A DNA stretch of 64,000 bases from NCBI GenBank assembly GCA_964106915.2, contig OZ066920.1, one strand, 5' to 3'. The notes under the pieces are model-generated. The model ran no database searches. It had not been told where the DNA came from and saw only the letters and a program-made list of their open reading frames with translations. Of the stretch, positions 18,341-46,684 are shown piece after piece. Origin of the DNA: Podarcis gaigeae. Its lineage: Eukaryota. Numbering within the stretch: position 1 is the first letter of the stretch; each line of letters starts with the position of its first letter. A program made the translations under genes and the position numbers.

Positions 18341-18388
18341 ATGAAGCAATTTCCCCCATTTGCAATCAGAATCTGGATATCAGAATGA
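18341..18388 (+). other. uORF MKQFPPFAIRIWISE* whose TGA overlaps the JARID2 ATG (ATGA)
   Basis: ATG at 18341, 15 sense codons, TGA at 18386-18388. The main ATG is 18385-18387. Translation is not demonstrated. Confidence 0.6.
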
Positions 18389-18429
18389 GCAAAGAAAGAC
18401 CCAAGAGGAATATAATTCAAAAGAAATAC
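18385..18429 (+). CDS. JARID2: JARID2 (Jumonji) coding exon 1, MSKERPKRNIIQKKY (partial CDS; phase-0 intron follows)
   Basis: The peptide matches the vertebrate JARID2 N-terminus as I recall it. The 45-nt coding part ends at a consensus donor TAC|GTAAGT (18430-18435) and lies just downstream of a CpG island. Confidence 0.96.
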
Positions 18430-20019
18430 GTAAGTGGTTATACCGGATCATTTATCTCTTTGATTTTTTTGGAAATGTTCATGAATGTCAAGTTTACAGC
18501 TAGCGGTGGCTTTAAAGAATATCTAGAAATGTTGGCTTTTCGTCCGCTGGGAATGGGGGGGGGGCGGGAATTCTCAAAAGCCTCTTTTAACTGTAAAGCG
18601 GGTTTAAAAACGAGATTCGTGTAGCGATACCTCAAGTGAATAAATGTATTGACCTCAAATGACACAATCATAATCTAGTTTTAGAAGATGAAAGACACGG
18701 TGCTTGGGGGGCTGCTGCGATAATGCAACTAAACTGCTTTCTCAAGCGGATTTACTAATATTTCACTTTGCATGCAAATGATCACATTATTATAACATAT
18801 ATTTAGGGGTTTGAGAAGGCATTGTGGTTGTTCGGCGAGACTGTTAACTTGAAATCTAATACCTGGTTATGGCGTGCTTGCTTCTTCTACTCCCCCATCA
18901 AATCTCGTGTATGTGATCGTTGGCTTATCTAGCTTGCAATAGAACCAAGCCAGTTGGGGATCCTGTTACAAGGAATGTATTTGCAAGGCCTGACTTTAAT
19001 ATTCGGGGAAATGGTTTGGAGTTTTGTTAATTTGGTGTGGGCTCACGGAGAAATTGGTTTACCGTTCAGAAAGATGCTTTGAAATTTGAAGAGCCAACGA
19101 TCTAGCTAATGGTGTGTGCCTTCGTATCGTGTAGTCAGTCACGGGATAACCTTTTCCAATTGTAGAAATGTGTAGAAATTGCTGAGGCCGTGCCTTTTTT
19201 TCTTGGCTCTAGCCATGGTTTGATTGGGATGGGGGAGTTATTTTCAGTTTGCAGCAACAGAGTGGATTAGTCAGATGTGCAGGCAGTCCTAATGGTGGTT
19301 TAAAAACAAAAACAAATGCAGCTTTTGCTATGGTTAGAATACCTTTCTTGAATATAAGTGGCTCAAGATGACAAAAAGTTGCTTACAGTATAGTGTGTTT
19401 GTCGTTTGTAAGCAGAACATTTGTTATGGGGCGCCTGTGTCCTGATGGTGGGGGTATTCTTCTGACTTCCCCATTGATTTTAATAAATACTTCATAAAGT
19501 CACAGTAGACTTCGACAGAGTTTTTCCTCCTATTTTTGACGTCTGGAAATGTATTTTTTTGAGAAACGTGACTCCAGATAACAATGGGTAACTTTTAAGA
19601 AAATTCGCCAACGAACTTGCGAATTAGAAATACATCCGCATTGCAGAGGAACTGAGAATCTGAAGCAAAAGTATTTTTGTCCAAAAGGGATTGTTTCTGT
19701 AGGAAGCCCCCTGATGAACACGCGACTTGTGACTTATGCCTTGCGCACGTTTCCAGTGCAGCGAAACAAAGCAGGAAAAGGGGTGGGGAATTCGCGGCGT
19801 GTTTTCCTTTTTCCAAGCCAAAATCTGTTTTTAGATACTCTTACGTCTGCACGACTGAACAATGCAACTCTATCGCGTTCATGAGGCTTGCTGTGGAAAA
19901 AGAAGAGAAGTGATGCCACTCCTCTCTCTCCAGGACCTGTTTGGAAAGACACGCTATACTGGAAAAGCCAGACAGCGTTTCGTGTGTTCACACAAGTTTC
20001 AGGATTGTCATGTTACGAG

Positions 20020-43900: not shown

Positions 43901-46203
43901 CCAAGAAGCAAAACTTTTGCATCTCTTTCAGACTAGGCAGTTAAATGAAGGTGGTACGCTTGGGAGGAAGTGGCTACAGGAAGATTGTGTGTGGTGGTGT
44001 GTGAGAATCTGCCAAAGGTGACCCAGCTGTACTGCTATTTTTGGCTAATTCGATGCACTTAGTTGGAGCCTGCGTTTTAATTAAAGGGGAAAGGTATATT
44101 TAATGATCATTAAAGCTCCCGTTAAAAAGTCTGCTCCTTGCTTTAAGTAATGGGAATGGTGGTGGAAAAAGGAAGACAAGAGGTGGCCAACTAATCCTGA
44201 CTTTTGTCTTTTTACCCAGAATGCACGGGGGTACCCTTGGCTTTGTTCTTTTGAGGATTTAATGCGCACTTTGAGTAAGTTGGGTGTGTTATTACAGTCC
44301 ACCTACCCCATTAGTTTTGGCTTTTGTGCTCTGTGATAGAAGATGGTGCTAGCAGAAGTATTCAGTTGAAGCAGGGGTGAGCAAGAATCTGTAGATGTAC
44401 ACAGAGAGGCCGTGTATATGATAACCAGGTGCAGTTAGCTGGCATTTATATGGGCACATTCTACGGTATACAGCTACCTTCCACAACCCTGTTTCCTTCA
44501 AGATTTTTTTCTGGACTATGTAATGCTGCTCTGTAGTATTGTAATTAGAGCTGAGTCACAATGACTTCTGGCATCAGTTCACAGACTGTAAATTTGGAGA
44601 GAAAGCATCTTGGTGTTTTTTGGGGGGGGCACAAATTGCTGGGGAGGAGGGGAGATTTGACCAGAAGTGAAGTTTCCCCTTCAGTGTCAGTGGTGATCGC
44701 ACCTGCTGCTTCAAGCTGCCATTTTCCCCATTTCCTTGCCTATTGGATGCCAGTGTGAGGGCAGAAAATATTTTTCCTTGGTCAGCTTTTACCAAAACAG
44801 TCAAAATCTGTTTTCTTCATCGTGACGAAGCCAAATCCAAGGGCCGGGCAATGTTTCTGCTGTCAGGATAGTCTGAGAAAACTTTTCATCTGAGCCTTAA
44901 CTGTAATATGTTCACTTGCACCACAAAAGGACTGAGGATAGCATTTGCTGAAATTTAAAGTGGAGTGTAACATTTGATTAGAATGTCGTTGTTTTTCAGA
45001 GCTTCCTTCCATTCAAACTTGGCATGCATTGGGAACTGATTGGGTCCCTCAGTATGGGGATCAGTAATTGCTTTGAATGACAGTTTGGCAACTACTTGGT
45101 GGTCTTCCCCTTGTGTTGTGCAGCCACAGGAGTTGAGTGTGTGTTTTCAGCAAAGCCCAACAGACCTGGCCAGAGGATGAGTCAATGCGAAATGGGTTTC
45201 CTGGAGCTGGAAAGTTTAGAAAACTACTGGATTAGAACATGAGCTTTGGCTGCAAAACAAGCTGGGAAAATGTAGAGCTTGCTTTTTTTTTTTTTTAAGA
45301 AAAAAAGGGCTAGTAAATATTGCCTGCCTATCCTCCTTATTACTGTACTGTTCCGTCAGTTGCCCTCGGATTACAAACTCCCTTTTTTTGAATTAGGTGA
45401 TTTGGCAAACATTCTTATGCCCTCTGACATGAGGATAGACAACTCAAAGCACACAGAGTAACACTGTTAAAAGCTTATTTTTTATTTTATTTAAAAAAGG
45501 GGCCATTAACAGCTTAAGCAAATAAACAAACTAAACTGGTCTGTCTGTCTGGCAGACAAGGCTATTCATAGAATCCTAATCCCCCTTAATTAAGTAATAT
45601 ACTTTCGAAAACGGTCCTCATAAGGCCCCTTTTCTCTGTGGAATCGAATGCCTCTGGTCTCTGAGGGAATGAAACGAAAAGCAAGAATAATTCAATTTTG
45701 GAAAACGACTAACGAGAGTAAAACTTGATAGCCTTAGTTGAACATGAAACGCAAACTAGTGCAGAATGTTTACTTTTAAATATTACAGTTAAATGACTGG
45801 AATTGTATTCTGATAAATAACTTGCTCTAGGGCTGAATTGTATTTGAGCAGCTTCCTCATCAACAGAAGGATGAGGTTATTCGTTCAGTAGCCCACCGAA
45901 TGCTACAATTCCAAGAAAGCAATGCTTTCTGGGAGACTTTAAAAAGCCCACAGTGTGCTGTGGGAGGATTGTTTGCCTGAGCCATCTGCACATTATATTA
46001 TTGACCTCTACCCATATGGAACCTGAAACAAAGACTAATGGATTTCCTGGCATCCCCCCCTTTTCTATTTTTCCTCTTTTTTTATTAATAAAAAGAGAGG
46101 GGAGAGACTGCTTTCATGTGATAGCTGGGGTGCTAACCAGACGTTTACTTCCTGGCACAAGAGTGTCTTTTTTTAAAAGAAACAACAACAGCCCAAACTC
46201 TAG

Positions 46204-46347
46204 TTACAGATAGGTAACCGTGTTGGTCTGCCATAGTCAAAACAAAAAAAAATTCCTTCCAGTAGCACCTTAAAGACCAACTAAGTTAGTTCTTGGTATG
46301 AGCTTTCGTGTGCATGCACACTTCTTCAGATACACTGTATCTGAAGA
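46204..46347 (-). mobile_element. Short Penelope-like element insertion with a 14-bp TSD
   Basis: Flanked by exact AGCCCAAACTCTAG at 46190-46203 and 46348-46361. The body resembles a PLE terminal repeat (GGTAACCGTGTTGGTCTG...GCACCTTAAAGACCAAC...GAGCTTTCGTG) and ends in an inverted duplication. Confidence 0.85.
46296..46333 (-). ncRNA. Minimal type I hammerhead ribozyme motif (PLE-associated)
   Basis: Minus strand reads GTAT CTGAAGA A GTGTGC AT GCACAC GAAA GC TC ATAC: stem I GTAT/ATAC, core CUGANGA, stem II GTGTGC/GCACAC, GAAA, palindromic vestigial stem III and UH cleavage site. Confidence 0.8.
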
Positions 46348-46684
46348 AGCCCAAACTCTAGGTACTTTCAGCAGTTGGGGGACTCTTTCTGACGTTCACC
46401 AGGATTACATTTGCGACTGTTGCTTCTTCTGATGGATTCCTAGAAATTAGCTCAGAATTCATTACATTAGCTTTCTGCACAGTTCTTTGTTGGTGGTGGC
46501 ACTTCTCGGGGGCATGTTTTCTGCTTCAGTGGCCAAATTTGCGTGTGATGCTAAACCATGTGCATGATCCTCAGGCTCACATGCTCCTCCTCACAGCACT
46601 TTGAATTGGCCACAAGCTTTTGCTTCCATCTTCAACTAACTACAATTTCTCATTGGCTCCAAACCCAAACTGTGGTTAGGATTA

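What the first reader, a model, noticed from the sequence alone, without database searches (positions are those of the whole stretch)
46190..46361. Compact Penelope-derived insertion carrying an intact hammerhead ribozyme, antisense in JARID2 intron 1
Seen: a 144-bp insert between exact 14-bp direct repeats (AGCCCAAACTCTAG). Its minus strand has every catalytic-core nucleotide of a type I hammerhead (GUAU-CUGAAGA-A-GUGUGC-AU-GCACAC-GAAA-GC-UC^AUAC), with predicted cleavage after the C complementary to position 46300. Known: Penelope-like elements carry minimal type I hammerheads with a vestigial palindromic stem III that are thought to cleave as dimers. Inference: the perfect TSD and unmutated core point to a recent, possibly polymorphic insertion. 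It could be a 5'-truncated PLE or a member of a non-autonomous retrozyme-like family. Being antisense, it would not cut JARID2 pre-mRNA but could process antisense transcripts.
Basis: partly seen in the sequence, partly recalled or inferred. Interest (0 to 1): 0.72.

Follow-up and report, generated by a model that had tools for sequence, protein, structure and literature searches.

The report
Penelope leader copied to its cap
This 144-base insert in a JARID2 intron is one of more than 10,000 near-identical stubs of a Penelope-type jumping gene, and its hammerhead ribozyme is predicted to be folded shut; the stubs likely stop at the capped start of the element's RNA, not at the ribozyme cut, which gives a testable clue to how these elements copy themselves.

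Summary
The insert, the 14-bp duplication and the hammerhead core are real. Relatives have the empty site. The copy is not special: a 36-mer across the core occurs 10,740 times exactly. It is the 5' leader (hammerhead plus tail) of a Neptune-type Penelope-like element with an RT–GIY-YIG ORF. It lowers the predicted hammerhead-compatible fraction from 0.14 to ≤2e-9, and no partner hammerhead lies in the window, so cleavage here is unlikely. The insertion is shared with a second organism; no empty allele was seen in this one.

The family is more informative than the copy. 5' ends pile up at the first base of helix I (32 of 100 arms within 3 nt), 33 nt below a TATA-like box. They often carry an untemplated G (15 of 20 clean junctions). 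They do not pile up at the ribozyme cut (2 of 100). Likely mechanism: reverse transcriptase primes inside the leader and runs to the cap, then integrates or jumps. Repeated jumps build retrozyme-like tandems. I did not find this in print. No RNA data support it yet.

The parts
46348..46361 (.). Target-site duplication on the element's 5' side; its last 2 nt (46348-46349) also match the inverted stub (microhomology)
   Evidence: single copy in empty sites
46336..46347 (-). 12-nt inverted stub, the reverse complement of the start of the leader; with the 2 shared nt it forms a 14-bp hairpin over helix I and the CUGA core
   Evidence: (I7)
46333..46336 (-). 5' breakpoint zone of the forward arm; 46333 is '+1', the inferred main RNA start and the first base of helix I
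   Evidence: loose ends at 46333/46335/46337
46296..46333 (-). Minimal type I hammerhead motif; predicted cut between 46300 and 46299
   Evidence: architecture as in PMC4209133
46239..46295 (-). Leader between hammerhead and U-run; the tail-less 3' ends of other copies cluster at about 46238-46246
   Evidence: (table 7)
46204..46238 (-). 35-nt 'tail'; in longer copies it continues to the ORF start codon at +142
46190..46203 (.). Target-site duplication on the element's 3' side; 2 nt next to the tail match the element's continuation (microhomology)
18385..18429 (+). JARID2 first coding exon (host context; intron 1 starts at 18430)

Best explanation
The insert is a promoter-less stub of a high-copy Penelope-like retrotransposon, likely made when the element's reverse transcriptase primed in the tail of its RNA leader and ran off the RNA's capped 5' end, and its hammerhead is predicted to be folded shut. 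Shown: the stub equals the leader that precedes the ORF start; it sits in a true TSD; 5' ends of the family cluster at the first base of helix I and not at the cut site. Inferred steps: (1) Pol II starts at or within 3 nt of +1, 30-33 nt below a TATA-like box in the pLTR. (2) The endonuclease makes a staggered cut about 12-13 nt apart. (3) One DNA end primes at the tail end with 1-3 nt of microhomology, and cDNA runs about 130 nt through the uncleaved hammerhead to the cap, often adding a C that reads as an extra G. (4) The other DNA end primes a second, inverted cDNA, normally at the tail-less site about 35 nt upstream; here it primed only 12-14 nt from the 5' end. (5) The two cDNA ends are joined. 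Alternatively the run-off cDNA jumps back onto the RNA and continues, giving tandem or longer copies. The copy is probably neutral for JARID2.
For: Parent: 813-aa open frame with RVT_1 and GIY-YIG hits, a CX4CXXC linker, and about 99% identity between 6 long copies. Leader, then tail, then ATG at +142. Nested exact counts towards the start: 10,740, then 3,910 (-64% over 6 nt), then 2,710. Across the cut site: 14,742, 14,506, 14,153, only -2.4% over the 3 nt that cross it against -1.6% over the 3 nt before. First 100 arms on contig C1: 32 end at -1..+1, 47 in -9..+5, 2 at the cut. TATA-like box 33 nt above +1 in 23 of 35 distinct upstream segments. Base 5' of +1: G 1,659 against A or C 880, a G share of 0.65 against 0.31 from composition. 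Junctions where both sides are known: 43 of 82 ORF-start copies jump to -4..+3; of 20 at +1, 15 have untemplated letters and all 15 end in G. 28 of 29 inverted pairs have the tail on exactly one arm. TSD 12-13 bp in 67 of 97. An untemplated 5' G is read as a cap copy for L1 (PMC9341517). PAc primes internally at two sites and uses uncleaved RNA in vitro (PMC11167929).
Against: No RNA evidence for the start site or cap. This copy's own junction has no extra G; it belongs to a second class ending at -1/-2. That class is preceded by T in 12 of 14 jump junctions, which a single capped start does not explain. 24 of 100 arms end inside the hammerhead and 27 of 100 extend past -10. The extra G could be non-templated addition at an uncapped end. 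The start also looks like a 3' splice site. The sample is the first 5.5 Mb of one contig and exact matching favours the young subfamily. Folding figures are nearest-neighbour predictions without tertiary contacts or protein.
Confidence: 0.75

Rival explanations
1. Ordinary random 5' truncation of a read-through PLE transcript, with a hot spot caused by RT stalling at RNA structure or by microhomology with the inverted arm.
For: PLE copies are known to be heavily 5'-truncated with an inverted partner (PMC8557442). 24 of 100 arms end inside the hammerhead. Many -1 ends can be read as microhomology with the GT-rich helix II of the inverted arm.
Against: The peak lies at the far (5') side of helix I, after RT has already unwound it. 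The same end recurs in direct ORF-to-leader jumps with no inverted arm at the junction (43 of 82), with an untemplated G in 15 of 20 at +1. It sits at promoter-like spacing from a TATA-like box.
Confidence: 0.12
2. The 5' boundary is a 3' splice site (pyrimidine tract plus CAG just upstream), and short copies come from spliced or lariat-derived RNA, as the D. virilis Penelope intron ends at helix I.
For: The motif is in the sequence. PMC4209133 maps the D. virilis intron end to the 5' end of helix I.
Against: No shared upstream exon among short copies. The predicted acceptor position (0) holds 5 of 100 ends against 13 at +1 and 14 at -1. It does not explain the extra G at +1.
Confidence: 0.06
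3. One reading: a self-propagating non-autonomous retrozyme-like family with fixed ends and a working hammerhead that cuts antisense JARID2 RNA.
For: 5' and 3' ends are clustered; the core is intact; some loci hold head-to-tail hammerhead units.
Against: Short copies lack the TATA-like box. The A/G subfamily variant occurs in both short (25:22) and long (9:18) arms, Fisher p=0.15. Inverted arms and junctions differ from insertion to insertion. This copy is a monomer whose core is predicted paired. Single minimal hammerheads showed no cleavage (PMC4209133) and the PAc hammerhead needed protein.
Confidence: 0.07

Closest known systems
EN+ Penelope-like elements, Neptune type (PMC8557442; PMC3846280)
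   Same: Single ORF with RT, Zn-finger-like linker and C-terminal GIY-YIG; pLTR with hammerhead; inverted 5' partner; 30-40-nt tail on one arm; TSD; TATA and Inr-like motifs in the pLTR were noted for Adineta Pen2a.
   Different: Here about half of the sampled arms (47 of 100) are only the ~100-135-nt leader and stop at one spot with an extra G. PMC3846280 explained junction palindromes by self-priming on an antisense template; these data favour two cDNAs from the sense leader.
PAc, Poseidon element of Anolis carolinensis (PMC11167929)
   Same: Internal RT priming at two adjacent sites that bound the tail; both DNA strands extended; uncleaved RNA is the substrate; no RNA ends seen at the hammerhead cut.
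   Different: In PAc the ORF starts inside the hammerhead and the tail lies in the ORF; here both are 5' UTR. PAc priming was reported as non-homologous to the target; here 46 of 97 tail junctions show >=2 nt microhomology (about 18% expected). In the parts I read, the paper does not describe run-off at a cap.
Minimal type I hammerheads of metazoan PLEs (PMC4209133)
   Same: Short helix I, long helix II, extra base before helix II, palindromic 15.2-16.2 with no loop 3.
   Different: This copy carries an inverted stub that pairs with the core.
Non-LTR retrozymes (bioRxiv 10.64898/2026.07.22.740005)
   Same: pLTR-derived sequence with a type I hammerhead.
   Different: Retrozymes are tandem arrays with a hammerhead in each unit; this copy is a monomer with an inverted stub. 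Some sister loci do form 2-3-unit tandems.
Minus-strand strong-stop DNA of LTR retroelements (recalled, no call) and cap-derived 5' G of full-length L1 (PMC9341517)
   Same: cDNA primed near the 5' end runs to the cap and must transfer to go on; an untemplated G marks the cap.
   Different: Priming is by cut target DNA, not tRNA, so the run-off product can itself integrate.

Membership tests
EN+ Penelope-like element | Parent ORF with RT and C-terminal GIY-YIG endonuclease | tested here: met
   RVT_1 E 4.8e-12 and GIY-YIG E 2.4e-05 in L128; DKG motif visible
EN+ Penelope-like element | Same leader found both after the ORF and before its start (pLTR) | tested here: met
   After the stop in 6 of 6 long loci; before the ATG in L176/L293 and others
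EN+ Penelope-like element | Inverted partner with a 30-40-nt tail on one arm; TSD | tested here: met
   28 of 29 pairs; TSD in 97 of 116 tail junctions; empty sites
Neptune clade | CX2-5CxxC linker between RT and endonuclease | tested here: met
   CX4CXXC in L060 and L128; feature per PMC8557442, shared with Nematis
Neptune clade | Placement in an RT phylogeny | not tested
   No tree was built
Minimal type I hammerhead | Conserved core, helices I and II, palindromic 15.2-16.2 | tested here: met
   against PMC4209133; no Rfam hammerhead match
Minimal type I hammerhead | Able to adopt the hammerhead fold in this copy's context | tested here: not met
   Predicted compatible fraction 1e-11 and 2e-9 with the stub, 0.14 without; prediction only
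Minimal type I hammerhead | Self-cleavage | not testable with these tools
   Needs in vitro transcription
Non-LTR retrozyme | At least two tandem units, each with a hammerhead | tested here: not met
   One motif in the window; definition
Non-autonomous SINE-like family | Own lineage and own promoter, separate from the autonomous copies | tested here: inconclusive
   Variant shared by short and long arms; TATA-like box absent from short copies; an internal promoter was not tested and no tree was built

The most novel reading that the evidence does not exclude
Penelope-like elements replicate through a strong-stop-like step. RT primes in the leader of the capped, uncleaved RNA, copies to the cap, and then integrates or jumps. 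Thousands of genomic stubs record the RNA start base by base and show that the 5' hammerhead is not cut before copying. Repeated cap-to-downstream jumps on one RNA create head-to-tail hammerhead units in a single insertion (L161, L255), a direct route to the birth of non-LTR retrozymes.
Probability: 0.55. Interest if true: 0.72.

Novelty: new member of a known kind. Interest (0 to 1): 0.5.

Why it matters
The locus itself matters little: it is one of more than 10,000 copies and is predicted to be catalytically blocked. The family bears on three open questions stated in the papers read: how PLEs transpose, what the hammerhead does, and how retrozymes arise from PLEs. If the cap run-off reading holds, the RNA start and the non-use of the hammerhead cut can be read from genome sequence alone in any species with young PLEs. 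It also gives sharp predictions for the existing in vitro PAc assay. As a marker, the insertion separates organisms A and B (filled) from D, E and F (empty).

Tried and rejected
Rfam scan: no hammerhead family among 12 matches at E<=10, so membership rests on the published minimal descriptor. Organism C (run X5): contigs stop at 46174 and resume at 46398, so its state is unresolved. 'Fixed palindromic family', suggested by the 30 best BLAST loci: rejected as a selection effect, because the query held the stub; the samples taken by core pattern vary. 5' ends at the hammerhead cut: rejected. Shared upstream exon: not seen. Complete intact element: not found among 7 long loci examined; L128 lacks the start and the L293 frame stops after 610 aa. 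Earlier findings by place and by sequence: nothing. No structure or complex prediction was run; neither was needed.

Full report
OBSERVATION. The window holds exact 14-bp direct repeats at 46190-46203 and 46348-46361 with 144 bp between them. The minus strand carries a full minimal type I hammerhead core at 46333-46296, with the predicted cut after the complement of 46300. It occurs once in the window, none expected by chance. Rfam returned no hammerhead among 12 matches at E<=10. Below, +1 is the G at window 46333 on the minus strand, the base before it is numbered 0, and the cut lies between +34 and +35.

HOST AND AGE. The exon at 18385-18429 matches JARID2 residues 1-15 and the next exon begins near window-relative 110,622, so the insert is antisense in intron 1. 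Eight public runs were laid as contigs, 8 of the 23 listed. Organisms D (X6, X8) and F (X10) skip 158 bp with one copy of the 14-mer, and E (X9) skips 161 bp, so the repeats are a true TSD. Contigs run from the flank into the insert in X1 and X3 (organism A, two samples; X1 may be the source of the assembly) and in X4 (organism B, both junctions), with no empty-site joint listed. X5 (organism C) is unresolved. The insertion is therefore young but shared by two organisms; polymorphism is not supported, though contigs drop rare alleles. The host looks like a lacertid lizard; that is a recalled resemblance and comes from no call.

FAMILY. A 36-mer across the core has 10,740 exact matches in the 1.51-Gb genome, reversed control 0. 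The window copy differs from 28 of 29 close copies at one position outside the core. Longer copies continue upstream into an ORF. L128 has an 813-aa open frame with RVT_1 and GIY-YIG hits and a CX4CXXC linker, and the 6 long loci are about 99% identical. This is a Neptune-type element by the linker (PMC8557442); no tree was built. Copies that run past the tail enter the ORF, with the ATG at +142. The insert is thus the 5' leader: hammerhead, spacer, U-run and 35-nt tail.

WHERE COPIES END. Towards the start, nested exact counts fall from 10,740 to 3,910 over 6 nt and to 2,710 over 7 more. Across the cut site a second nested series goes 14,742, 14,506, 14,153, a loss of 1.6% and then 2.4% per 3 nt. 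These losses include ordinary mutation. In the first 100 matches of a downstream core on contig C1 (all 100 examined), 32 arms end at -1..+1, 47 within -9..+5, 24 at +6..+33, 2 at +35, and 27 extend to -10 or beyond. A TATA-like box begins 33 nt above +1 in 23 of 35 distinct upstream segments; 11 had none and 1 lay elsewhere. The base 5' of +1 is G in 1,659 and A or C in 880 matches, a G share of 0.65 against 0.31 from window composition. Many of these contexts are ambiguous because the TSD or inverted arm could supply the G. The cleaner test is the 82 matches to the ORF start, all examined. Of these, 43 switch from the ORF to an arm starting at -4..+3; the other 39 go elsewhere, stop at mismatches or run to the end of the fetched stretch. 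Of the 20 at +1, 15 carry untemplated letters, all ending in G (10 a single G); 4 have an ORF-supplied G and 1 has C. An untemplated 5' G is read as a copied cap for L1 (PMC9341517). Against a single simple start: 14 junctions end at -1, 12 of them preceded by T, and the window copy belongs to this -1/-2 class without an extra G.

INSERTION ANATOMY. Among the 100 arms are 29 inverted pairs; 28 have the tail on exactly one arm, matching the two priming sites of PAc (PMC11167929). Of 116 tail junctions, 97 had a TSD of 9 nt or more within 700 nt (19 dropped); 67 of the 97 are 12-13 bp, and 46 show 2 nt or more of microhomology against about 18% expected. TSDs were called automatically and a few may be wrong. 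Head-to-head junctions with 10 or fewer spacer bases give 1,339 strand matches, many counted on both strands. The window copy fits as a tail-primed arm running to -1/-2, plus a second arm primed only 12-14 nt from the RNA start by 2 nt of microhomology. Its 14-bp repeat is compatible with a 12-13-nt stagger plus microhomology (inference).

IS THE RIBOZYME LIKELY ACTIVE HERE? The stub pairs with helix I and the CUGA core; the 61-nt region folds at -20.8 kcal/mol against -7.8 for the hammerhead region alone. The constrained ensemble gives a hammerhead-compatible fraction of 0.14 without the stub and 1e-11 or 2e-9 with it. These are predictions. Published single minimal hammerheads did not cleave (PMC4209133), the PAc hammerhead needed protein, and no partner motif lies in the window. 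The copy has no TATA-like box of its own. An effect on JARID2 or antisense RNA is unlikely.

MECHANISM. Most likely (0.75): Pol II starts at or near +1; RT primes from cut target DNA in the leader, reads through the uncleaved hammerhead to the cap, and the product is joined to a second inverted cDNA or jumps back onto the RNA. Two loci suggest repeated jumps in one event. L161 has a 190-nt tandem of 2.4 copies with the same junction, extra G included, twice. L255 has two junctions that differ by 2 nt, both of the -1 class, which favours repeated jumps over later duplication. Such units resemble non-LTR retrozymes, whose origin from pLTRs is proposed but not explained in the preprint parts read. 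Whether long copies arise by a homologous jump to the 3' pLTR or from read-through RNA was not tested. The cap, the start site and the order of events are inferred from DNA only.

WHAT IS KNOWN AND WHAT I SAW. PMC11167929: parts 1, 2 and 4 of 4, no supplements; its Fig. S2 may bear on the 5' pile-up. PMC4209133: parts 1-2 of 4. bioRxiv 10.64898/2026.07.22.740005: parts 1-3 of 5; supplements not seen. Passages only: PMC8557442 (12 of 27 places), PMC2377424, PMC3846280, PMC9341517. Inverted pLTR, tail, TSD, minimal hammerhead, internal priming and TATA/Inr-like motifs are all described there. Run-off at a cap with an extra G in PLEs was not found in searches; the library lacks most subscription papers and Repbase. 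Earlier AI notes on other genomes reach a similar 'leader copied twice' view; they are leads, not support.

VERDICT. The locus is an ordinary, probably inert member of a known kind. The family-level pattern is a useful and apparently unreported handle on PLE replication. Interest 0.5.

Noticed in passing
L161:1359-1820 (G000 C1, about 104.234 Mb): Three head-to-tail ~190-nt leader units (the first 5'-truncated) with an identical junction including the extra G; a retrozyme-like tandem inside one insertion. L255 shows two similar jumps differing by 2 nt.
   Followed up: partly
family-wide, jump junctions at position -1: A second class of 5' ends preceded by T in 12 of 14 cases, 5 of them untemplated; unexplained (second start site, slippage on GT repeats, or non-templated A).
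   Followed up: partly
window 46686 onward: A different repeat starts about 325 bp right of the insert; it resembles a Sauria SINE (name recalled, no call).
   Followed up: no
window-relative 82.2 kb (L295) and 122.1 kb (L299), beyond the window: Two more inverted-pair insertions of the same family in JARID2, one in intron 1 and one after exon 2.
   Followed up: no
family-wide: Many copies are ~100-bp near-perfect hairpins with a hammerhead on each strand; in introns they would be double-stranded RNA substrates for editing or dicing.
   Followed up: no
window 46204-46293, minus strand: The leader downstream of the hammerhead folds into a long stem that brings the two priming regions together; a possible RT-binding structure.
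   Followed up: no
L031, L038, L041, L164, L165, L173: An older subfamily, about 85-90% identical, has a consensus TATA box, one register of which lies 31 nt above +1.
   Followed up: partly
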